Shown one piece after another: positions 670 through 53,962 of a DNA stretch of 64,000 bases (positions are counted from its first letter, which is position 1; the number at the start of each line of letters is the position of its first letter). The notes under the pieces are model-generated. The model made no database searches. It saw only the letters and a list, made by a program, of their open reading frames with translations, and was not told where the DNA came from. The DNA comes from an uncultured Bacilli bacterium (GTDB taxonomy: Bacteria; Bacillota_I; Bacilli_A; RF39; UBA660). The stretch spans positions 95,042 through 159,041 of the forward strand of contig CANRFQ010000001.1 of NCBI GenBank assembly GCA_947629935.1, written 5' to 3'. The position numbers and the translations under genes are program-made.

Positions 670-933
670 TCAATTTGCTTGAATCAATACTAATTTTGTA
701 CCATTTCGAATATTAGTATTAAATAATGTAACATCTGATTCATATAGTTCTTTAGTTTTAGCATTATATAATCTATTTGTATTTGTAATTTCAATTTCAT
801 TATTTGTTATTTCACAAATAGCTTTAGTCAATAAGTTTATAATGTTCCCAATTTTTTTAGAAATTGGCAGATAAACGTCAAATTCTTTATCAATTTCCGG
901 AACTAATATTTTAACAAATACTTTATTATTCAT
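670..933 (-). CDS. esaB: YukD/EsaB-like ubiquitin-fold T7SS protein
   Basis: 87 aa, about the size of a beta-grasp protein. It sits immediately downstream of essC with a 1-nt stop/start overlap. Confidence 0.65.
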   Translation of the reverse strand: MNNKVFVKILVPEIDKEFDVYLPISKKIGNIINLLTKAICEITNNEIEITNTNRLYNAKTKELYESDVTLFNTNIRNGTKLVLIQAN

Positions 934-3900
934 TATTCATCTCCTGCTCCTAACCCTTTTAATACTTTATATTGACCATTACATATTATATATATTGTAT
1001 CGTTATTATTGGATAAATCAGCTTTACTCAAATTTAATGGCATTATAGTTTGATTATCTACTCCTTTACCAGCCCATATAATACTATATATATTATTATT
1101 ACTATACCATTGTTCCATAGTAGTCTTTTTAAATGGTGCTGAATTATCAGTTAAAATAAAGTAAGAATTATTATAAAGACTTAAATTATTAAAGATGTCA
1201 AATAAAGAATTAATTCCCTCATCTAATACTTTATCATAAATAACGCTTATGCCATTTAAAATATAAACATTAGTTATTTTATCATTATTATTAGTTTTAA
1301 TATTTTCAATAGCTTGAGTAAACTCTGAATTAATATAATAATCCTCTCCATCAAAATCATATAAAGAATTGGCAAAATCTATAATGGTTAATTTAATAAC
1401 AGGAATAGAATTTAAAATTTTTATTAAATTAATTATAAACTTATTTTCTAATATTAAAGAATTACCTATTATAGGCGTAATTTTTTGACTAGCAAAATCA
1501 TATTTAACAATAGTGCCATCATAAATACTATATCCAATTGGAATATCTTTTAAAGAATTAATATACGGAATCATTAAATCCGCATTTATGAGTTTTGGAA
1601 TTATGGGAATACTACGAGCTTGAGGATATTGCATTTTTTCCCCAACAGACTTAATTATATCTGTAATCTGATCTTTTAAATAAATATAGGCTCCTTGGAA
1701 TTCATAAGCAGTGTCATTAACACCTATAATACCTCTTCCAAAACATTTGGCAGGAACTAACCCACTTGGTGCATTCAAAACAAATTTATAATCAAAGGAA
1801 TCGGCAACTTGGGTAGCCAATTTAATATTGAAATATTGAGAAACTCTAGTAGAAACATTATTATTAGCAGTAGCTGTTATAATAAAACTTATTCCGTATT
1901 TTGTACTATCTCTTAAAATAGAATTAAATTTTTCATCAGCCTCATTGCTACAACTATCATAGAAATTTTCATAATTATTAATTACAACTAATATAAATGG
2001 TAAAAAATTACCAGTATTAATAAAGGAGTTATAACTTCCACCATAATCGGAAAACAATTCTTTTCGACGATTTAATTCATTTTCTAACATATCAAATAGA
2101 TTATCAATTTTAGATATTTCATCAGATAGTAAGATGTCTCCTACCTGAGGAAAACTTGAGAAGACCTTAAGAGTTTCGGCTCCTAAATCAACAATATAAA
2201 TATTAATTTCCTCAGATGTATGATAAATTGATATGGAATATAATGTTGTAAGTAATAAATTTTCTTTTCCAGTACCTGGATTACCAAATATATACATATT
2301 TCCTTGATTAGTAAAATCAAATATTAAAGGTTTTTGCTCTTGATTCATAGGAATATCATATTCGCCCACAATGGGATTTATCAAATATCTACGTCCTTGA
2401 TAATTATATTTTTTTATTAAATCACCTAAATATATTTCTTTAGGGATACTAGGTAACCATAACTGAGTAAATTTAATTTTTTCACGGTTAGCTAAACTAT
2501 ACATATATCTAACTAAATTGCTTAATTGATCACCTAAATCTTGTTGACTCTCAATTTTAGCTTCATCATTTACAACTTTAATTTCTTCTCCTACATTATT
2601 AATAAACGTTATATCATCATCATAAAATTTCATTAATCTTTCAGTAGGAAAATAACGTGCCCCTGCCCAAGCCGATTGGCCTAACTCAAACGTTTCATTA
2701 TAACCTACTTGAAGATAAAATCTACCCGTTTCATTAATAGAAGCGGCTTCAGGTCTTTTTAAAAGTTCATTACTATCTTCTGGAGTTTGGACTTTTAAAC
2801 ATACTTTAAAACGAGCATTACTCCAAATTTGATCATCTACGATACCACTTGGCTTTTGAGTTGCTAAAATTAAATGAACTCCTAAACTACGACCAATACG
2901 CGCAGTTGAAACTAATTCTTCCATAAAATCAGGTTGTTGAGTTTTTAACTCCGCAAATTCATCAGAAATAATAAATAAATGTGAGATAGGAATATCTAAT
3001 TTATTTTCTCGATAAAATTTTTGATATTTATAGATATCGATTGTACTTTCCCCTAATTTTTCTCGGGCATCATTAAATAAACTTTGTCTTCTTTGCAATT
3101 CAGATTTTATAGATACTAAAGTTCTGTTCATTTCACTTTTATCTAAATTTGTAATAGATCCTACCAAATGCGGAAGTTTGATGTTAGTTTCTTTATTTTC
3201 AAATGCTCCAGCCAAGCCACCGCCTTTATAATCTATTAAAACAAATTGGACTTCATATGGATGAAAGTTCATTGCTAAAGACAGAATAAAAGTTATTATA
3301 AATTCTGATTTACCACTACCCGTAGCTCCCGCAATTAACCCATGCGGACCTTGAGCTTTCTCATGTAAATCTAAAGTAAATAATTTTCCATCAACATTTA
3401 TTCCTATAGGAACAGATAATGTAATAGTCGGATCACTACTCATCCATCTATTTAAAATATTTAACTGTTCAATTTTTCCAACTTTATACATTTCTAAAAA
3501 ATTAATATTTGTAGGCAAATTATTACCGGTAGCCGTTGAGGAGATAGGAACGTTTGCCACTAATTCAAGATATTGATCAATTCTTTTATTCATAGTTTCA
3601 ACTTTAAAGTGAGTGGTATCCTCAGCACTTAAATTTTTATTAGATATCGTTGCTAATTCGCCGTTTATTTGAATAAATCTACTACTTTTAGAGGGAACAT
3701 TTTTTAAAGATTGGTCAATAGTTAACAAAGAAAAACCATAATTATTTTGCGCATTAATTATTTTATCAATAATACCTAATTTTTTTGTTTCAATAAAATC
3801 ATCAGTTATTATTAAATAATATTCATTAAAGTTTTTATAGGCTTCTTTTTTATCTATTTTAGTATTAGAATTTTTAGCATTGCTCTCTCTTTCATTAAAT

Positions 3901-5462
3901 ATATCTTCTAAATATGTAGATATAACCCTACTATCTTCATCATTATTTGCAAAGAAATGAGCCTTTTCGCCTTTTAAGTAAAAAGTATATTTTAAGTTTT
4001 CCCATAAATAGCTTTTATTTTCGTTAGTTAAAATAACTATTTTCAAATCACTAGCACTATAATAAGTAATAATTTGAATAATTAAATAATTTAAAAAGAA
4101 TTCTTTATATTTGAAACTAGGCTCAATAATTAATGGAAGGATATTATTCTCAACCAAAGAAATGGTAATAGGCACTTCTTCTAATATTAATGGAGTATCA
4201 ATCAGTTTTTGGACTTCATCTTTTAAATTATCATCTTCCATAGAAAACTCTTCCAAAGAAGCATCTAATTTAATAGAGGCTTTGATATTACCTACACCTA
4301 ATCTTAAAGTTAAAAAATCGTTATCTAAAATTTCGCGATTCCAAAATTTATTTTTATCACTTATGGCTTTTAAACATTCTTCGGCATTTAAATTGTTTTC
4401 ATATAATATTTCTTTTTCTACTTTTATTTCATTAGCTATTTCATCGCGCTTTTTATTTAAATATTGTGTATATTTCTCTTGCCTTTTGGCTTCTTTTTTT
4501 AATTTTAACTTTTTTGTATATTTATTTAAAAGCATAGGAAACATTATTGTACCTAAAATCATACTAATACAAATAATAATTTCCGTTAAAGAAGATGCCA
4601 AAGTATTTTTCCCACTAACTACATTAAATATAGCAATTATACCTGTAATAGATGAAGATAAACTCATCATAATTGTAGCTCCCATTGTAAGTACTAAAGG
4701 TGGCTCGTTATCTTCTCTTTTTTCAGGAGGGTTAACTATTTTAATTTCTTTTTGCGTTATTTCCTTTTTTAATCTAGGCGCATGAAAAAAAGTTTGATTT
4801 TCATTAAACAAAACAATTCTTTTTTCACTATCTTTTACCGGAGTAAAATGATTATCGGAATCAATTTCTAATTTTGTCTCTTTTTCTAAATTAATTGTAC
4901 AATAATTACGAGGGTTATTTAATTTGATAAATTTATCCATAAAAATTATTTTTAAGCCACTTAAAAAGATTATATCGCCCATCACTAAATTTTTTTTATT
5001 ATATCTTTTAGAATTAACAAAAACATTTTCTGTTTTAGTTTCAAAAATCCAGTTGAAACCATCTTTATGTAAAGTTATTATCGGTGACTTTTGACTTAAA
5101 ATAGGATAAATTATATCACTGTTTCCCCCTCCAATAGTAAGATTATCTTTATTAAAAATTGAATAAGAATAATATTTAGTAGGGATATTAAAGCAATATA
5201 AGAACACGCTATCTTCTAAATCACGAAATTTTAAATTATAAAAAGAGCCATCTGTAATTTCATCTTTATCAATTAGCTCAATATCTTTATAGACACTAAC
5301 ATCATAATCACTAGAAATAGTCCAATTTCCATTTATAGCAGTAAATAAAATGTTTTCTGATACACCATTAATAGATGTATATTCTATAACAAAAGAGTCC
5401 TCAATTTTAGAAGGTAAAGTATAATTTTTTATACTAAATTTATCTGCTAAATATACCTTCAT
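933..5462 (-). CDS. essC: EssC/YukB FtsK-SpoIIIE family T7SS ATPase
   Basis: 1509 aa. The N-terminal region is FHA-like, followed by two TM segments (ITGIIAIFNVV..., ICISMILGTIMFPML) and three P-loop ATPase modules. The first Walker A is GATGSGKSE. The second (GNPGTGKEN) and third are degenerate, as is usual for EssC. Confidence 0.9.
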   Translation of the reverse strand: MKVYLADKFSIKNYTLPSKIEDSFVIEYTSINGVSENILFTAINGNWTISSDYDVSVYKDIELIDKDEITDGSFYNLKFRDLEDSVFLYCFNIPTKYYSYSIFNKDNLTIGGGNSDIIYPILSQKSPIITLHKDGFNWIFETKTENVFVNSKRYNKKNLVMGDIIFLSGLKIIFMDKFIKLNNPRNYCTINLEKETKLEIDSDNHFTPVKDSEKRIVLFNENQTFFHAPRLKKEITQKEIKIVNPPEKREDNEPPLVLTMGATIMMSLSSSITGIIAIFNVVSGKNTLASSLTEIIICISMILGTIMFPMLLNKYTKKLKLKKEAKRQEKYTQYLNKKRDEIANEIKVEKEILYENNLNAEECLKAISDKNKFWNREILDNDFLTLRLGVGNIKASIKLDASLEEFSMEDDNLKDEVQKLIDTPLILEEVPITISLVENNILPLIIEPSFKYKEFFLNYLIIQIITYYSASDLKIVILTNENKSYLWENLKYTFYLKGEKAHFFANNDEDSRVISTYLEDIFNERESNAKNSNTKIDKKEAYKNFNEYYLIITDDFIETKKLGIIDKIINAQNNYGFSLLTIDQSLKNVPSKSSRFIQINGELATISNKNLSAEDTTHFKVETMNKRIDQYLELVANVPISSTATGNNLPTNINFLEMYKVGKIEQLNILNRWMSSDPTITLSVPIGINVDGKLFTLDLHEKAQGPHGLIAGATGSGKSEFIITFILSLAMNFHPYEVQFVLIDYKGGGLAGAFENKETNIKLPHLVGSITNLDKSEMNRTLVSIKSELQRRQSLFNDAREKLGESTIDIYKYQKFYRENKLDIPISHLFIISDEFAELKTQQPDFMEELVSTARIGRSLGVHLILATQKPSGIVDDQIWSNARFKVCLKVQTPEDSNELLKRPEAASINETGRFYLQVGYNETFELGQSAWAGARYFPTERLMKFYDDDITFINNVGEEIKVVNDEAKIESQQDLGDQLSNLVRYMYSLANREKIKFTQLWLPSIPKEIYLGDLIKKYNYQGRRYLINPIVGEYDIPMNQEQKPLIFDFTNQGNMYIFGNPGTGKENLLLTTLYSISIYHTSEEINIYIVDLGAETLKVFSSFPQVGDILLSDEISKIDNLFDMLENELNRRKELFSDYGGSYNSFINTGNFLPFILVVINNYENFYDSCSNEADEKFNSILRDSTKYGISFIITATANNNVSTRVSQYFNIKLATQVADSFDYKFVLNAPSGLVPAKCFGRGIIGVNDTAYEFQGAYIYLKDQITDIIKSVGEKMQYPQARSIPIIPKLINADLMIPYINSLKDIPIGYSIYDGTIVKYDFASQKITPIIGNSLILENKFIINLIKILNSIPVIKLTIIDFANSLYDFDGEDYYINSEFTQAIENIKTNNNDKITNVYILNGISVIYDKVLDEGINSLFDIFNNLSLYNNSYFILTDNSAPFKKTTMEQWYSNNNIYSIIWAGKGVDNQTIMPLNLSKADLSNNNDTIYIICNGQYKVLKGLGAGDE

Positions 5463-8330: not shown

Positions 8331-11147
8331 TTATTTTACAACGATATTAACTATTTTATTTGGTACGACAATTATCTTAACTATTTCTTTACCTTCTAGA
8401 TGTTTTTGAACTTTCTCATCATTTTTGGCTAGTTCTTCTAGAGTTTCCTTTGAACTATCTACAGGGACTTTAATAGTATTACGTAATTTGCCATTAACAG
8501 AAATAGCTATTCCTACTTCACTATCCACTAATTTTGTTTCATCATATTTTGGCCAAGTTTCTTCTGTTAAAGGTTTATACCCTAGTTCTTCATTTAATTC
8601 TTCAGTTATATGAGGAGCAATTGGATTAAGTAAAATTAACAATAAATGATAATCATCTTTTGTAAGCTCTTCTTTTTCTTCATAAGCATTAGCTAAAATC
8701 ATCAAAGTAGAAACGGCCGTATTATAAGCCATATGAGTTAAATCATATTCTACCTTTTTAATACTTTTATGAATTAAAGCCTCTAAATCTTTACTATATC
8801 CTGTTTTTGATCCTACTTTATCTTTAAGTCTTATCACTTTGTCAATAAATCTTTTGCAACCTTTTAAAGAATCTGTACTCCATGGGGCATCTTGTTCATA
8901 ATTACCCATAAACATTTCATATAAGCGTAAAGTATCTGCACCATATTCATTAATGATATCATCAGGATTAATGACATTTCCCTTTGATTTACTCATTTTT
9001 TCATTATTTGAACCTAAAACCATTCCATGAGAAACTCGGGTCCAAATCATTTCTTTATTGGGTACTAAACCAATGTTGTATAAAAATTGAACCCAAAAGC
9101 GCGCATAAAGTAAATGACGAGCTGTATGTTCCATACCGCCATTATACCAATCAACTTTTTGCCAATATTTCATGGCATCCATTGAGGCAAATTCCTCATT
9201 ATTATGAGCATCCATAAATCTTAAGAAATACCAGGAAGATCCGGCCCAGTTCGGCATAGTATCTGTTTCCCTTTTGGCTGGTGATCCACATTTTGGACAA
9301 GTTGTATTTACCCAGTCGGTTATTTTGGCAAGAGGACTCTCACCAGTATCAGTTGGTTCATATTCAGCAACATCAGGAAGTAGTAAAGGTAAATCTTTTT
9401 CATCCATTGGCACCCAACCACATTTTTCACAATAGATCATAGGAATTGGTTCTCCCCAGAATCTTTGACGAGAGAATATCCAATCACGCATTTTATAATT
9501 TACTTGTTTCTTACCACAATGGTTTTGTTCAAGCCAATTAATCATTTTATTAATAGCATCTTCTTTATTTAGGCCATTTAATTCTTCTGAGTTAATATGA
9601 ATTCCATCACCGGTCATAGCTCCCGGTTTTTTAGCATATTCATAAGTTTTCATATGTAATTCATCTTTAATTTCTTTAGAAATTACATCTTCGCTTACCC
9701 ATTCTACTTTAAAATCCTCATCTTCATCTAAATTTTGCCCTATTTTACTATTATCTTTTAATTTAAAGAAATAGCCAGTACTTTCAATATTAAAATATTT
9801 ATCTTTATTATAAACATAGTAGTGATGATTTATTTTCGGTAACTCTTTAATTAATTCTAAAGAAATATATCCCGTTTCTTCAGCAATTTCCCGTTTAGCA
9901 CACTCAAGTGGAGTTTCTTTATCTTTAATAGTTCCCCCTATAAATAAACGGCCACCTTTTTTACCCCAATTTAAAGTCAAATATTTTTTTTCTTTTTCAT
10001 CATAAACTATCGCAACAATAGAGTTTTTCTTTTCTTCCCCATCGTGTGGCGTACCTGTAACTTCTTCTAAAACTTGAATAATCGGAATATTAAACTTTTG
10101 GGCAAATTCATAGTCTCGATCATCATGAGCCGGCACTGCCATAATAGCTCCTGTTCCATAAGTTGCTAAAACATAGTCACTAATATAAATCGGAATTTCT
10201 TTTTTATTAACAGGATTAATTGCATAAGCTCCGGTAAATACACCCGTTTTTTCTTTATTTAATTCTGTTCTTTCCAAATCATTTTTTAAAGCACAAGCTT
10301 TTTTATATGCATCTACTTCCGCTTTTTTGTCTTGTGTCGTTATAATATCAACATATTTATGTTCTGGAGCTAAAACACAGTAAGTTGCTCCATAAAGAGT
10401 ATCACATCTAGTCGTAAAAACGGTAAAAGTTAAATCATGATGAGCAATTTTAAAATCTACATGTGCTCCTACAGATTTACCAATCCAATTTATTTGTCCT
10501 AACTTAACTTTATCGGCAAAATTAGTATCATCTAAACCTTTTAATAAATCTTCTGAGTAAGAAGCCATTTTAAGCATCCACTGTGATTTTTCTTTTTGGA
10601 CAACTCGACTACCACAACGTTCACAAACGCCTCCCGCTGAATCTTCATTTGATAAAACCGTTTTACAAGTCTCACACCAATTAACTGGTACCTTTTCTTT
10701 ATATGCCATTCCATGCTTATAAAATTGTAAAAATTGCCACTGTGTCCATTTATAATAATCCGGATCAGTTGTCGAAAATTCTCGATCCCAATCAAAAGAG
10801 AAACCAATTGATTTCATTTGTTTTTTAAAAGTTGCAATATTTTCTTTAACTGCTTCTTTTGGATGAATATGATTTTTTATTGCATACTGTTCAGCTGGAG
10901 CACCAAATGCATCCCATCCCATTGGATATAACACGTTATACCCTTGCATTCTTTTCATTCGAGCTAAAGCATCTTGGGCTGTATAACTACGAACATGCCC
11001 AACATGTAACCCAGCTCCCGAAGGATAAGGAAATTCAACTAAAATATAATATGGTGGCTTCTCACTACCATTTATTGCTTTAAAAACTCCCTTCTCTTCC
11101 CATCTATTTTGCCATTTTTTTTCGATTGCTTGATGATTTTTTACCAT
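8331..11147 (-). CDS. leuS: leucyl-tRNA synthetase carrying an inserted Nudix hydrolase domain
   Basis: HIGH motif (PYPSGAGLHVGH), KMSKS motif and the LeuRS N-terminus (EKKWQNRWEE). About 145 in-frame residues contain a canonical Nudix box GGTIKDKETPLECAKREIAEETGY. SD GAAAGGATGG lies upstream. Confidence 0.95.
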   Translation of the reverse strand: MVKNHQAIEKKWQNRWEEKGVFKAINGSEKPPYYILVEFPYPSGAGLHVGHVRSYTAQDALARMKRMQGYNVLYPMGWDAFGAPAEQYAIKNHIHPKEAVKENIATFKKQMKSIGFSFDWDREFSTTDPDYYKWTQWQFLQFYKHGMAYKEKVPVNWCETCKTVLSNEDSAGGVCERCGSRVVQKEKSQWMLKMASYSEDLLKGLDDTNFADKVKLGQINWIGKSVGAHVDFKIAHHDLTFTVFTTRCDTLYGATYCVLAPEHKYVDIITTQDKKAEVDAYKKACALKNDLERTELNKEKTGVFTGAYAINPVNKKEIPIYISDYVLATYGTGAIMAVPAHDDRDYEFAQKFNIPIIQVLEEVTGTPHDGEEKKNSIVAIVYDEKEKKYLTLNWGKKGGRLFIGGTIKDKETPLECAKREIAEETGYISLELIKELPKINHHYYVYNKDKYFNIESTGYFFKLKDNSKIGQNLDEDEDFKVEWVSEDVISKEIKDELHMKTYEYAKKPGAMTGDGIHINSEELNGLNKEDAINKMINWLEQNHCGKKQVNYKMRDWIFSRQRFWGEPIPMIYCEKCGWVPMDEKDLPLLLPDVAEYEPTDTGESPLAKITDWVNTTCPKCGSPAKRETDTMPNWAGSSWYFLRFMDAHNNEEFASMDAMKYWQKVDWYNGGMEHTARHLLYARFWVQFLYNIGLVPNKEMIWTRVSHGMVLGSNNEKMSKSKGNVINPDDIINEYGADTLRLYEMFMGNYEQDAPWSTDSLKGCKRFIDKVIRLKDKVGSKTGYSKDLEALIHKSIKKVEYDLTHMAYNTAVSTLMILANAYEEKEELTKDDYHLLLILLNPIAPHITEELNEELGYKPLTEETWPKYDETKLVDSEVGIAISVNGKLRNTIKVPVDSSKETLEELAKNDEKVQKHLEGKEIVKIIVVPNKIVNIVVK

Positions 11148-11496
11148 CTTTTTTCCATCCTTTCTTTACTGCATATATTCCTAATAATTCATAGCATAAA
11201 AACATTAAAACAAATAGTAATACAAAGCCAATTAACATTTGCCACATCAATTTTAAAGGTAAAACTGATATGATTGTACAAACAAAGGCAATAATAAAAG
11301 CATTGGCAATGTTAATTAATCGAAAAAGTTTTTGATAGTCAATTTTTTTCTTATCAATATTAAAACGACTTATTAAGTATTTTATTTCCGCCATTTGATA
11401 TTTTTTATTATTCTTAAGTTTTCTTTTATTAATCAAAAAAAATACTAACCATGCTCCCAAAAATAAAACTAGAAAAAATATTAAATTATATAACAT
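11104..11496 (-). CDS. small membrane protein between the T-box leader and leuS, overlapping the leuS start by 44 nt
   Basis: 130 aa with 3 predicted TM helices. A strong SD (AAGAGGA) sits 7 nt upstream of the ATG. It starts right after the T-box terminator. Confidence 0.4.
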   Translation of the reverse strand: MLYNLIFFLVLFLGAWLVFFLINKRKLKNNKKYQMAEIKYLISRFNIDKKKIDYQKLFRLINIANAFIIAFVCTIISVLPLKLMWQMLIGFVLLFVLMFLCYELLGIYAVKKGWKKDGKKSSSNRKKMAK

Positions 11497-11520: not shown

Positions 11521-11745
11521 AAACACATCCTCTAAAGGACGTGTTTAAACGTGGTACCACCTAAAGTTTCTAGTATTACTAGCTTATTTATCCATAAGGG
11601 AGATAACCCATCACATCCAAAAGCAAGTTCATATAATCTTTATTACTAGTTTTCATCAACCACTAGCTTTCTTTAAATATTAATTATATTACTACTCTTT
11701 TTTCTTCGCTTGATAATATTATATTAGATTAAAATAAATTAATCA
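11521..11745 (-). promoter_or_regulatory. T-box riboswitch leader (Leu specifier) controlling the small ORF and leuS
   Basis: Minus-strand TTAGGTGGTACCACG matches the T-box consensus AANNNGGGTGGNACCGCG. A terminator hairpin (AAACACGTCC...GGATGTGTTTTTATTTT) follows. A candidate specifier is GAA-CUU-G. Confidence 0.6.
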
Positions 11746-52057: not shown

Positions 52058-53787
52058 TTATTTAACAACAATATTAACTAATTTTTTGGCAACAGCAATT
52101 TCTTTAATAATAGTTTTGCCTTCTAATTGGTTTTTAACACTTCCTATTTCTTTGGCTTGTGACTTCATTTTCTCTTCATAAGAAATACAGGTACTTCTAC
52201 TTTACCTCTTATTTTACCATTTATTTGGACAACCATTTCATACGTTTCGTCAACTATTTTACTTTCATCATAACTAGGCCATGATTCATAAGCAATTGTA
52301 TTTGCCTTATTAAATACTGTTTGCCAAATCTCTTCGGTTATATGAGGTGTTATAGGATTTAATAATTTAATAAAGTTCTGCGCGTACTCTAAGTTCCATG
52401 TTTTTTCTTTATATACAGCATTAACAAAAATCATCATTTGGGCAATAGCGGTATTGAAATTTAGAGATTCATAATCTTCCGTCACTTTTTTAACGGTTTT
52501 ATTATAAACTTTATCCAAATTAGGATTATCTTTAAATTCGCGCAAATCCTCATGATAAAGACGCCAAACTCGATCTAAGAATTTTTTAATTCCTCTAACT
52601 CCTTCATCATTCCAAGGCTTATCAGCTTCTAAAGGTCCCATGAACATTTCGTACATTCTTAAAGTATCGGCTCCATATTCTTTTTCGACATCATCAGGAT
52701 TAACAACATATTTAGGAAAACGTTTACCCATTTTAATTCCATTAGAACCTAATATCATTCCTTGATGAACAAGTTTTTTAAATGGTTCTTTAACACTTAC
52801 TAAACCTTTATCATATAAGAAATTATTCCACATTCTAGAATATAGTAAATGTCCAACAGCATGCTCCGGTCCACCCACATACAAATCGACTGGCATCCAA
52901 TGTTCAATTAGCTTAGGATCGGCCAATTTCTGATCATTATGAGGATCGATATATCTTAAAAAATACCAACTAGATCCTGCTGAACCGGGCATTGTTGAAG
53001 TTTCACGTACGCCTTTGACGCCATCAACCTCAACGTTTTTCCATTCAGTAGCATTTTCCAAAGGGGCTTGGCCATTTTTACTTTTATAATCCGCCATTTC
53101 TGGTAAAGTTAGTGGTAAATCTTTATCATCTAAAACAATATCTCTTCTATCTTCTAAATGAATTATTGGAATTGGTTCACCCCAATATCTTTGACGAGCA
53201 AAAATCCATTCTCTAATATGGTAATTCACTTTTTTCTTACCACAACCCATGTTTATAAGTTTATCAGTAATCTTTTCTTTCGCTTCTTCTACCGTTAGAC
53301 CACTAAATTCTTCACTATTAATTAATTTACACCCTTTATTCAAATAATCTTGTTTCTCAAAAGCGCACTTAGTTGTATCACGGCCCTCAATTACTTGAAT
53401 CATAGGAATATGATATTTTTCGGCAAATTCAAAATCTCTTTGGTCATGAGAAGGAACAGCCATAACGGCTCCCGTACCATAATTGGCTAAAACAAAAGCA
53501 CTAAGATATACTGGTACTTCTTGATTATTAACCGGATTTATCGCCATAATTCCTTCTAATTTAACCCCAGTTTTATCTTTATTTACTTCCGTGCGATCAA
53601 AATCCGATTTTTTAGCAGTTTCATTTCTATAATTAACTACTTCATCCCAATTAGTAATACGGTCTTTTAGTTCATCTACTAATTTATTTTCTGAGCTAGA
53701 ACCATAAATGTTATACCGTATATCGTTTCAATACAAGTAGTATAAATATTCTTGCCATGTTTTTTCAATTTCAATAAAGTTATACAT
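52058..53787 (-). pseudogene. leuS: decayed second copy of leuS (leucyl-tRNA synthetase pseudogene)
   Basis: The start, SD AGGAGG and the LeuRS N-terminus MYNFIEIEKTWQEY are retained, then a stop. An internal deletion removes the HIGH catalytic half and most of CP1. A 460-aa ORF (52165-53547) covers the C-terminal half with a degenerate KMSKS (KMGKR). The final ~37 aa (...KKLVNIVVK) are in a different frame. Confidence 0.8.
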
Positions 53788-53962
53788 TTTCCTACCTCCT
53801 AATTTTTCCATAAAAGAAATTATAATTAAGAAATTAATAAATTGCCAAATATAACAAGATCTTACATTTATTACGGTATCAAGCTTTTTTTCAAAAGTCA
53901 AATATATTAAACATAAAATAATTCCCTATTTTAATTTAGAAATGCTATAATAACTTCATGAG

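What the first reader, a model, noticed from the sequence alone, without database searches (positions are those of the whole stretch)
9650..10080. Nudix hydrolase domain inserted in-frame inside leucyl-tRNA synthetase
Between the LeuRS segments ...NIPIIQVLEE and GAMTGDGIHINSEELNGL... the protein contains about 145 extra residues. These include a textbook Nudix box GGTIKDKETPLECAKREIAEETGY, matching Gx5Ex7REUxEExGU, preceded by a MutT-like beta-strand region (SIVAIVYDEKEKKYLTLNW.KKGGRLF).

The decayed leuS paralog elsewhere in this window has the ordinary short linker (QVIEGRDTTKCAFEKQDYLNKGCKLINSEEFSGL) at the same position. The insertion is therefore a gain in this copy.

Aminoacyl-tRNA synthetases generate Ap4A and related dinucleotides, which Nudix enzymes hydrolyse. 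A covalently fused Nudix module in LeuRS would be a novel moonlighting or quality-control arrangement.
Basis: seen in the sequence. Interest (0 to 1): 0.7.

Follow-up and report, generated by a model that had tools for sequence, protein, structure and literature searches.

The report
Nudix hydrolase domain inside leucyl-tRNA synthetase
The enzyme that loads leucine onto tRNA here carries a complete, well-conserved nucleotide-pyrophosphate-cleaving (Nudix) domain spliced into its proofreading domain, an arrangement shared by hundreds of ultra-small Patescibacteria and apparently never described, so it points to an unknown job physically coupled to tRNA charging.

Summary

It is not a misassembly. 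At least 120 protein clusters from many assemblies share it, and it is under purifying selection (dN/dS 0.10-0.22).

It is not a recent gain in this copy. The same Nudix subfamily sits at the same LeuRS site in hundreds of Patescibacteria (CPR) species. There it also occurs at other LeuRS sites, in tandem, or as a separate gene just upstream of leuS.

In this Bacilli lineage the Nudix-leuS lies behind a Leu-specific T-box. The second, canonical leuS in the window is a genuine pseudogene.

The substrate is unknown. The nearest relatives are RppH- and ApnA-hydrolase-like enzymes. My best guess is an active hydrolase for RNA 5' ends or dinucleoside polyphosphates, tethered to LeuRS.

No publication describing this was found. 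I rate it a new variant of a known kind, with moderately high interest.

The parts
11532..11714 (-). T-box leader with the specifier reading GAA-CUU-G (Leu), upstream of the small ORF and the leuS operon
   Evidence: Rfam RF00230 scores 99.9 bits against a gathering score of 93. TGAACTTGC is invariant in the T-boxes of relatives L005, L007 and L089.
11104..11496 (-). 130-aa predicted small membrane protein between the T-box and leuS; it overlaps the leuS start by 44 nt
   Evidence: The ORF is listed. An ORF of the same size occupies the same position in L005, L007, L089 and L093. It has no family match.
8331..11147 (-). leuS, a complete bacterial leucyl-tRNA synthetase of 938 aa that carries the Nudix insert
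   Evidence: TIGR00396 scores 976 bits against a cutoff of 548. The AF2 full-length model has pLDDT 87.4. Foldseek gives TM 0.79-0.83 to the T. thermophilus and E. coli LeuRS structures.
10995..11006 (-). HIGH motif (HVGH, aa 48-51) of the aminoacylation site
   Evidence: Present in 121 of 121 clade members.
10062..10490 (-). CP1 editing domain, the part before the insert (aa 220-362). It contains TTRCDT (aa 245-250, window 10398-10415) and HDDRD (aa 341-345, window 10113-10127).
   Evidence: PF13603 covers aa 220-371, which is profile positions 2-150 of 185. The motifs are in 121 of 121 clade members. T245, T246, T250, D342, R344 and D345 are invariant in the 32 sequences of alignment A3 (window, Bacilli Nudix-type, canonical 804-aa and ten divergent Nudix-type LeuRS, one of them from a named CPR genome).
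9624..10061 (-). Nudix domain insert (aa 363-508)
9867..9935 (-). Nudix box G405-x5-E-x7-REIAEETGY427, the catalytic metal-binding motif
   Evidence: Read directly from the sequence. The strict motif is in 120 of 121 clade members. G405, E420, E423, E424 and G426 are invariant in 30 divergent LeuRS inserts.
9513..9623 (-). Remainder of the CP1 editing domain after the insert (aa 509 to about 545)
   Evidence: PF13603 has a second matched stretch, and the LeuRS alignment resumes at GAMTGDGIHINS.
8985..8999 (-). KMSKS motif (aa 717-721)
   Evidence: Present in 121 of 121 clade members.
52058..53790 (-). Pseudogene of a second, canonical (Nudix-less, 804-aa type) leuS
   Evidence: tblastn with the intact relative P0294 finds aa 259-762 (85% identity), aa 762-804, aa 232-261 and aa 1-14 in three different frames. 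About aa 15-231 are missing. The 460-aa remnant ORF is shown.

Best explanation
**What it is (shown).** The gene encodes a working, housekeeping-type LeuRS. The aminoacylation motifs and the CP1 editing motifs are intact, and expression is controlled by a leucine-specific T-box. A self-contained 146-aa Nudix pyrophosphohydrolase domain is inserted into a surface loop of the CP1 editing domain. By my reading this corresponds to roughly E. coli LeuRS residues 361-380. The domain has an intact catalytic box and folds as a separate lobe without disturbing the LeuRS fold.

**Where it belongs (shown).** It is a member of a distinct LeuRS-associated Nudix subfamily. That subfamily has been joined to LeuRS repeatedly: at this site, at the start of CP1, at a third site, in tandem, or as a separate gene directly upstream of leuS. 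This is seen across Patescibacteria and in this gut Bacilli lineage.

**How it most likely works (inferred).**
- LeuRS charges and proofreads tRNA-Leu as usual.
- The tethered Nudix uses Mg2+ bound by E420, E423 and E424 to cleave a pyrophosphate linkage in a nucleotide-linked structure held or generated close to the tRNA acceptor end.
- I favour an RppH-like action on 5'-polyphosphate or nucleotide-capped RNA ends, with tRNA-Leu or another LeuRS-bound RNA as the target.
- Hydrolysis of free dinucleoside polyphosphates (Ap3A to Ap6A) made from enzyme-bound Leu-AMP is the close second. RppH-type enzymes typically do both.
For: **Identity and fold.**

**Catalytic competence and selection.**
- The strict Nudix box is present in 120 of 121 clade members.
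- The box residues are invariant in 30 inserts that are only 24-64% identical to the window's.
- dN/dS is 0.10-0.22 for the insert and 0.04-0.12 for the rest of the gene.
- GC3 of the insert matches the rest of the gene.

**LeuRS function retained.**
- HIGH, KMSKS, TTRxDT and HDxRD are present in 121 of 121 members.
- A T-box with a CUU specifier lies upstream in the window and in L005, L007 and L089.
- The only other leuS in the window is a pseudogene.

**Coupling to LeuRS.**
- 85 of the best 150 representative clusters found with the insert are LeuRS.
- 77 of 80 GTDB loci show the order LeuRS N-part, Nudix, LeuRS C-part.
- There are multiple insertion sites and tandem copies.
- A free-standing copy lies 11 nt upstream of leuS in L083 and upstream of valS in L024.

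**Substrate class.**
- 29 of 30 inserts give their most consistent, though sub-threshold, NCBIfam matches to RppH models, and 24 of 30 to YtkD.
- Structure and profile neighbours include the AvrM14 decapping effector, Dcp2, Ndx1 Ap6A hydrolase, the Rv2985 diadenosine polyphosphatase and Ap4A hydrolases.
- The other hosts of this Nudix are RNA-end enzymes: RNase PH and a LigT-like 2H phosphoesterase.
Against: - No enzymatic evidence exists.
- All matches to characterised Nudix subfamilies fall far below the curated cutoffs, for example RppH at 24 bits against 118.
- The best structural neighbour, 2AZW, has no known function.
- Mature tRNAs normally carry a 5' monophosphate, so a tRNA 5'-end substrate is not obvious.
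- LeuRS is not a prominent Ap4A producer (my own knowledge).
- The same domain also occurs in a GNAT/M17-peptidase fusion and as a free protein, so coupling to LeuRS may be opportunistic.
- I could not obtain model coordinates, so the position of the Nudix site relative to the tRNA path is unknown.
- A subset of CPR copies carry a variant box (E to Q, R lost). That may mean that catalysis is dispensable in some copies.
Confidence: 0.5

Rival explanations
1. By-product clearance only. The Nudix destroys free dinucleoside polyphosphates (Ap4A, Ap3A) or other adenylate-derived nucleotides made by the LeuRS active site. It has no RNA substrate.
For: Ap4A, Ap6A and diadenosine polyphosphate hydrolases are among the closest solved relatives: 1F3Y, 3I7U, 1VC8, 9CXX and CT771. 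Aminoacyl-tRNA synthetases are the established cellular source of Ap4A (my own knowledge). The free-standing copy next to valS in L024 fits a link to class I synthetases generally.
Against: It does not explain the strong bias to LeuRS rather than the efficient Ap4A producers LysRS and PheRS. It also does not explain the fusions to RNase PH and to a LigT-like enzyme. A soluble product does not need a tethered hydrolase.
Confidence: 0.22
2. Non-catalytic module. The Nudix fold serves as a nucleotide or RNA-binding or regulatory domain, for example sensing ADP-ribose or an alarmone, or adding a tRNA contact. MutY's C-terminal domain, NrtR and the mitoribosomal Nudix-fold proteins work this way.
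Against: The window's clade keeps every catalytic residue in 120 of 121 sequences. The three metal-binding glutamates are invariant even in the variant copies. Known binding-only Nudix domains have normally lost these residues (my own knowledge).
Confidence: 0.12
3. Hitch-hiking housekeeping enzyme. A general house-cleaning Nudix was fused into a permissive loop of an essential, highly expressed gene in streamlined genomes. There is no mechanistic link to leucylation.
For: The same domain occurs free-standing (50 short clusters) and in unrelated hosts such as a GNAT/M17-peptidase fusion. It occupies several different loops of LeuRS, so no precise geometry seems required. CPR LeuRS also carry other large inserts that are not Nudix.
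Against: LeuRS is overwhelmingly the main host (85 of 150 clusters and 77 of 80 loci). There is operon adjacency to leuS when the Nudix is not fused (L083). The arrangement is kept in a Bacilli lineage with a larger genome and is placed under a Leu T-box.
Confidence: 0.13
4. Artefact: a chimeric misassembly, an intein, or a recent insertion of a mobile element.
For: None was found. Only the unusual architecture itself suggests it.
Against: At least 120 clusters of 935-940 aa from NCBI, ENA, JGI and Logan assemblies carry it. It appears in independent short-read and long-read contigs with conserved synteny. It is under purifying selection and has matched GC3. Pfam finds no Hint or intein domain. 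The junctions (EE|VTG and KKP|GAM) lack the intein Cys/Ser and His-Asn residues.
Confidence: 0.01

Closest known systems
Bacterial leucyl-tRNA synthetase (NCBIfam TIGR00396; structures 2BTE of T. thermophilus and 4AQ7/4ARC of E. coli)
   Same: The full domain set is present: Rossmann core with HIGH and KMSKS, the CP1 editing domain with the Thr-rich and Asp motifs, the anticodon-binding domain and the C-terminal domain. TM is 0.79-0.83 to the solved structures. Control by a Leu T-box is typical of Firmicutes.
   Different: It has 146 extra residues forming a Nudix lobe inside CP1. No solved LeuRS has this; the longest target is 876 aa.
Enterococcus faecalis MutT/nudix family protein, PDB 2AZW (structural-genomics target, function unknown)
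   Different: It is a free-standing 148-aa protein, only 17% identical, with no link to LeuRS and no known substrate.
RNA pyrophosphohydrolase RppH/NudH (NCBIfam PRK00714 models) and B. subtilis YtkD/BsRppH (TIGR02705)
   Different: Scores are far below the curated cutoffs (24-45 bits against 116-118 for RppH and 154 for YtkD), so this is not an orthologue. RppH is free-standing.
Nudix dinucleoside polyphosphate hydrolases (Ap4A hydrolase 1F3Y/3I7U/1KT9, Ndx1 Ap6A hydrolase 1VC8, Rv2985 9CXX, CT771 4ILQ)
   Different: No subfamily-specific signature could be tested here. They are free-standing enzymes.
Aminoacyl-tRNA synthetases with an added catalytic domain, or present as paired paralogs
   Same: There is precedent for a class Ia synthetase carrying an unrelated enzyme domain, namely IleRS with a GNAT domain (NCBIfam NF040702, seen). 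There is also precedent for a second synthetase paralog under separate control: AgnB2 LeuRS (5AH5), and thrS/thrZ and tyrS/tyrZ in B. subtilis (my own knowledge).
   Different: Here the added enzyme is a Nudix hydrolase. It is inserted inside the editing domain rather than appended at an end.

Membership tests
Nudix hydrolase superfamily (Pfam PF00293) | Match to the family HMM above the gathering score | tested here: met
   52.2 bits against 21.1, E=8.4e-14, aa 375-491. The insert alone scores 55.7 bits.
Nudix hydrolase superfamily (Pfam PF00293) | Nudix box GX5EX7REUXEEXGU | tested here: met
   G405, E411, R419-E420-I421, E423-E424, G426-Y427, read from the sequence. Present in 120 of 121 clade members.
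Nudix hydrolase superfamily (Pfam PF00293) | Alpha/beta/alpha sandwich fold with the box on a loop-helix-loop | tested here: met
Nudix hydrolase superfamily (Pfam PF00293) | Divalent-cation-dependent hydrolysis of a nucleoside diphosphate linked to X | not testable with these tools
   Needs an enzyme assay.
Bacterial leucine-tRNA ligase (NCBIfam TIGR00396) | Equivalog HMM above the curated cutoff | tested here: met
   976.1 bits against 548.4.
Bacterial leucine-tRNA ligase (NCBIfam TIGR00396) | Class I signature motifs HIGH and KMSKS, and the CP1 editing residues (Thr-rich TTRxDT and the conserved Asp in HDxRD) | tested here: met
   The motifs are at aa 48, 717, 245 and 341, in 121 of 121 relatives. 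They are invariant across alignment A3.
Bacterial leucine-tRNA ligase (NCBIfam TIGR00396) | Leucylation of tRNA-Leu | not testable with these tools
   Indirect support only: a T-box with a Leu (CUU) specifier lies upstream, and the other leuS in the window is a pseudogene.
RNA pyrophosphohydrolase RppH (NCBIfam NF001936 and related) and YtkD (TIGR02705) | Equivalog HMM above the curated cutoff | tested here: not met
   24.0 bits against 118 for RppH and 22.5 against 154.4 for YtkD. This is resemblance only.
MutT 8-oxo-dGTP diphosphatase (TIGR00586) | Equivalog HMM above the curated cutoff | tested here: not met
   20.7 bits against 97.9.
Asymmetric Ap4A hydrolase subfamily of Nudix | Subfamily-specific residues that stack the adenine downstream of the box, and ApnA hydrolase activity | tested here: inconclusive
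Intein (protein-splicing element) | Hint-domain blocks, an N-terminal Cys/Ser, and a C-terminal His-Asn followed by Cys/Ser/Thr | tested here: not met
   Pfam gives no Hint or intein match. The insert starts with VTG and ends with KKP followed by G.

The most novel reading that the evidence does not exclude
A LeuRS-associated Nudix family performs a previously unrecognised step that is physically coupled to tRNA handling. One possibility is removing 5' polyphosphate or nucleotide caps from tRNA-Leu or other LeuRS-bound RNAs. Another is destroying adenylate-derived nucleotide adducts as an integral part of leucylation and editing. On this reading the coupling is obligatory enough to have been fixed repeatedly across Patescibacteria, at three LeuRS sites, in tandem, and in an operon. 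It then moved between Patescibacteria and a gut Bacilli lineage, where the Nudix-LeuRS has displaced the canonical enzyme.
Probability: 0.3. Interest if true: 0.85.

Novelty: new variant of a known kind. Interest (0 to 1): 0.66.

Why it matters
Aminoacyl-tRNA synthetases are among the most studied enzymes, and bacterial LeuRS is a drug target for benzoxaboroles and agrocin-type inhibitors. A catalytic Nudix domain built into its editing domain is conserved across hundreds of CPR species and a gut Bacilli clade. That implies an unrecognised chemical link between leucylation and proofreading on one side and nucleotide or RNA-end metabolism on the other.

The finding gives a directly testable system: a single 938-aa protein and a separable 146-aa domain. 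It offers a handle on the biology of Patescibacteria, whose translation apparatus is known to be unusual. It also provides a natural experiment, because one genome has lost its canonical LeuRS and relies on the Nudix-bearing enzyme.

If the Nudix turns out to act on tRNA or RNA 5' ends, it would be the first synthetase with a built-in RNA-end processing activity.

Tried and rejected
**Rejected readings.**
- Misassembly or chimera. Many independent assemblies carry the same ORF, it is under purifying selection, and GC3 matches the rest of the gene.
- Intein or mobile element. There is no Hint domain and no splicing residues.
- Recent gain in a duplicate of the canonical leuS. The paralogs are only 45-48% identical, and the insert is shared with CPR LeuRS at the same site.
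- MutT, NudB, NudE, RppH or YtkD orthology. All are far below the curated cutoffs.

**Attempts that did not resolve or led nowhere.**
- Direction of transfer between CPR and Bacilli. A neighbour-joining tree of 30 LeuRS on 790 columns is star-like. The Bacilli Nudix-type is monophyletic and groups with the other (mostly CPR-like) Nudix-type LeuRS when the tree is rooted on the canonical type. Its sister group is unresolved, with bootstrap support of 31% or less for any placement, and I had no wider LeuRS outgroups.
- Whether relatives carry both leuS types in one genome. Seven look-ups gave seven different assemblies. The Nudix type came from GCA_947625365.1, GCA_947585915.1, GCA_947594925.1 and GCA_947626055.1. 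The canonical type came from GCA_947632205.1, GCA_947631785.1 and GCA_947623945.1. This remains untested.
- The first genome scan, with the 30-sequence alignment, failed because the alignment was not conserved enough. A 12-sequence alignment worked.
- Cluster look-ups for organism names yielded only one organism name, Moranbacteria.
- The AFDB50 fold library was not available.
- Six literature searches found nothing on a Nudix in LeuRS. The one candidate paper only cites a Nudix druggability study.
- A Nudt16-like Pfam signature is seen in some free tandem relatives, but in only 1 of 30 LeuRS inserts.
Full report
**1. The observation**

The minus strand carries one uninterrupted 938-aa ORF at 8331..11147. 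NCBIfam calls it bacterial LeuRS: TIGR00396 scores 976 bits against a cutoff of 548.

Pfam finds the class I catalytic domain, the LeuRS editing domain PF13603, the anticodon-binding domain and, at aa 375-491, a NUDIX domain. The NUDIX match has E=8.4e-14 and 52.2 bits against a gathering score of 21.1. PF13603 is split by it: aa 220-371 cover profile positions 2-150 of 185, and the rest follows the insert.

The insert is therefore aa 363-508, which is window 9624-10061. The Nudix box G405-x5-E411-x7-R419-E420-I-x-E423-E424-x-G426-Y427 is canonical.

The insertion is in CP1. It is not in the leucine-specific or KMSKS-proximal region.

**2. It is a real, folded, selected domain**

- AlphaFold2 on the insert, using an alignment of 30 LeuRS inserts, gives pLDDT 95.7 and pTM 0.89.
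- The full-length model has pLDDT 87.4 and pTM 0.76, and keeps the Nudix lobe confident. It superposes on T. thermophilus, E. coli and N. gonorrhoeae LeuRS with TM 0.79-0.83 on the target length. No solved LeuRS carries such a lobe.
- A full-length search returns at least 120 clusters (90% identity level) of 935-940 aa that are 75-92% identical to the window's protein. All have PF00293. They come from NCBI, ENA, JGI and Logan assemblies, and one is named Candidatus Onthocola stercoravium, which NCBI places in Bacilli incertae sedis.
- In these 121 sequences the strict Nudix box is present in 120. HIGH, KMSKS, TTRxDT and HDxRD are present in all. The insert is 69% identical to the window's on average, against 79% for the rest of the protein.
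- Nei-Gojobori dN/dS is 0.10-0.22 for the insert and 0.04-0.12 for the body.
- GC3 is 0.17 for the insert and 0.19 for the body.
- Misassembly, an intein and a recent mobile insertion are therefore excluded.

**3. The wider family**

An exhaustive HMMER search with the 146-aa insert finds 288 representative clusters (50% identity level) at E of 1e-3 or better. Of the best 150:

- 85 are LeuRS;
- 50 are short proteins or fragments of 80-199 aa;
- 15 are other long proteins, at least three of which are LeuRS fragments.

Most LeuRS hosts carry the Nudix at exactly the window's site. Others carry it at the start of CP1 (after the equivalent of aa 208-236) or at a third site downstream of CP1. Some have two or three copies per protein. 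Pfam confirms 2-3 NUDIX domains in P0132, P0136, P0150, P0152, P0158 and P0176.

The box is canonical in 58 of 76 same-site copies. A distinct variant, GGxExGQT...xEIxEETGY, marks the second tandem copies and a subgroup that includes the Moranbacteria protein P0173.

A scan of one genome per GTDB species used a single peptide pattern. The best 80 loci are almost all titled Patescibacteria/CPR. The named groups are Paceibacterota, Parcubacteria, Saccharibacteria, Moran-, Falkow-, Taylor-, Zambryski-, Kaiser-, Giovannoni-, Jorgensen- and Berkelbacteria. In 77 of the 80 loci the order is LeuRS N-part, Nudix, LeuRS C-part.

In L083 the same Nudix is a separate 161-aa gene ending 11 nt before the leuS start. 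In L024 a 170-aa copy precedes valS.

Other hosts are RNase PH (P0190), a LigT-like 2H phosphoesterase (P0205) and a GNAT/M17-peptidase protein (P0267).

So this is a LeuRS-associated Nudix subfamily with repeated, independent joining to LeuRS. The conserved subfamily features beyond the box are W483, K448 (in an HK..NR segment), Y427 and L463.

**4. The two leuS genes and regulation**

The second leuS, at about 52058-53790 on the minus strand, is a pseudogene. Against the intact 804-aa relative P0294 it retains:

- aa 259-762 at 85% identity;
- aa 762-804 in another frame;
- aa 232-261 in a third frame;
- aa 1-14.

About aa 15-231, including HIGH, are deleted. Relatives hold intact 804-aa versions that are 77-87% identical to the remnant and have no Nudix.

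The two types are only 45-48% identical to each other. The Nudix-type body is equally distant (41-51%) from CPR Nudix-LeuRS. The Nudix came with an old, separate LeuRS lineage. A neighbour-joining tree could not resolve whether the Bacilli copy nests inside the CPR diversity.

Rfam finds a T-box leader at 11532-11714 on the minus strand (99.9 bits). It lies upstream of a conserved 130-aa membrane ORF and the Nudix-leuS. The specifier reads GAA-CUU-G, which is leucine, and is invariant in L005, L007 and L089. The specifier assignment rests on my reading of the conserved GAA plus codon plus purine layout.

Three canonical-type loci (L004, L006, L090) and 20 CPR loci have no T-box at the gathering threshold.

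The cell thus regulates the Nudix-LeuRS as a true LeuRS. In this genome it is the only intact leuS within the window. Whether relatives hold both genes in one genome could not be shown (see Tried and rejected).

**5. Mechanism**

Shown:
- an intact LeuRS with intact editing residues;
- an autonomous Nudix lobe with a complete metal-binding box, under purifying selection;
- a strong and repeated association with LeuRS.

Inferred:
- the Nudix is catalytically active;
- it acts on something present at LeuRS.

The alternative hosts, RNase PH and the LigT-like enzyme, work on RNA ends, and CP1 is the LeuRS domain that receives the tRNA acceptor end. I therefore favour an RppH-like action on RNA 5' polyphosphate or cap structures. 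Free ApnA hydrolysis is the close second, and RppH-type enzymes do both (my own knowledge).

Non-catalytic and hitch-hiking readings remain possible. They are weighted in the rival explanations.

**6. Comparison with what is known, and novelty**

The protein passes every testable membership criterion for bacterial LeuRS and for the Nudix superfamily. It fails the curated cutoffs for RppH, YtkD and MutT.

There is precedent for synthetases that carry foreign catalytic domains (IleRS with a GNAT domain, NF040702). There is also precedent for paired synthetase paralogs. A Nudix inside CP1 is not among the solved structures. It is not mentioned in 7.7 million PMC papers plus bioRxiv under six term combinations.

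The sequences themselves are in public databases, labelled simply as leucine-tRNA ligase.

I therefore rate it a new variant of a known kind. It is widespread, conserved and experimentally tractable, with interest of about 0.66.

Noticed in passing
window 11532-11714 (-): A T-box leader with an apparent CUU (Leu) specifier controls the Nudix-type leuS operon. The same T-box is present in relatives L005, L007 and L089. It is absent at three canonical-leuS loci (L004, L006, L090) and at 20 CPR loci.
   Followed up: yes
window 11104-11496 (-): A conserved 130-aa predicted membrane protein with no family match sits between the T-box and leuS. It overlaps the leuS start by 44 nt. The same arrangement is seen in L005, L007, L089 and L093. 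Its function is unknown.
   Followed up: partly
window 52058-53790 (-): Pseudogene of a canonical 804-aa-type leuS. About aa 15-231 are deleted and there are two frameshifts. A 460-aa remnant ORF (52165-53547) is still 85% identical to intact relatives, so the decay looks recent.
   Followed up: yes
proteins P0132, P0136, P0150, P0152, P0158, P0176, P0242; loci L019, L038, L046, L073, L087: Divergent LeuRS (loci L019-L087 titled as CPR taxa; the representative proteins are unnamed) with two or three Nudix domains, at the start of CP1, late in CP1 and at a third site. The second tandem copies carry a conserved variant box, GGxExGQT...xEIxEETGY, which lacks the first Glu and the Arg.
   Followed up: partly
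L083 492-977; L024 3462-3974; L026 3483-3977: Free-standing copies of the same Nudix subfamily. One ends 11 nt upstream of leuS (L083), one lies upstream of valS (L024), and one is not next to any synthetase (L026).
   Followed up: partly
proteins P0190, P0205, P0267: The same Nudix subfamily is inserted in RNase PH, fused to a LigT-like 2H phosphoesterase (DUF1045), and embedded in a GNAT/M17 aminopeptidase multidomain protein.
   Followed up: partly
proteins P0134, P0195, P0200, P0201, P0214, P0222; loci L011, L013, L029, L052, L058: Many divergent Nudix-type LeuRS (the loci listed are titled as CPR taxa) carry a further 130-200-aa insert that is not Nudix, about 70 residues after the Nudix site. 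I did not identify it.
   Followed up: no
L005 12414-13085; L006 1933-2760: NrtR-like regulators (Nudix plus winged helix) lie near both the Nudix-type and the canonical leuS in relatives. This may be coincidence. Their relationship to the LeuRS Nudix was not tested.
   Followed up: no
L001, L002, L003: Relatives from long-read metagenome assemblies show leuS, GH31 and FemAB broken into many short ORFs. This looks like frameshift sequencing error. It explains why the first insert-only search returned only fragments.
   Followed up: partly
window 933-5462 (-): A very large 1509-aa ORF lies downstream of the leuS neighbourhood. It was not examined.
   Followed up: no
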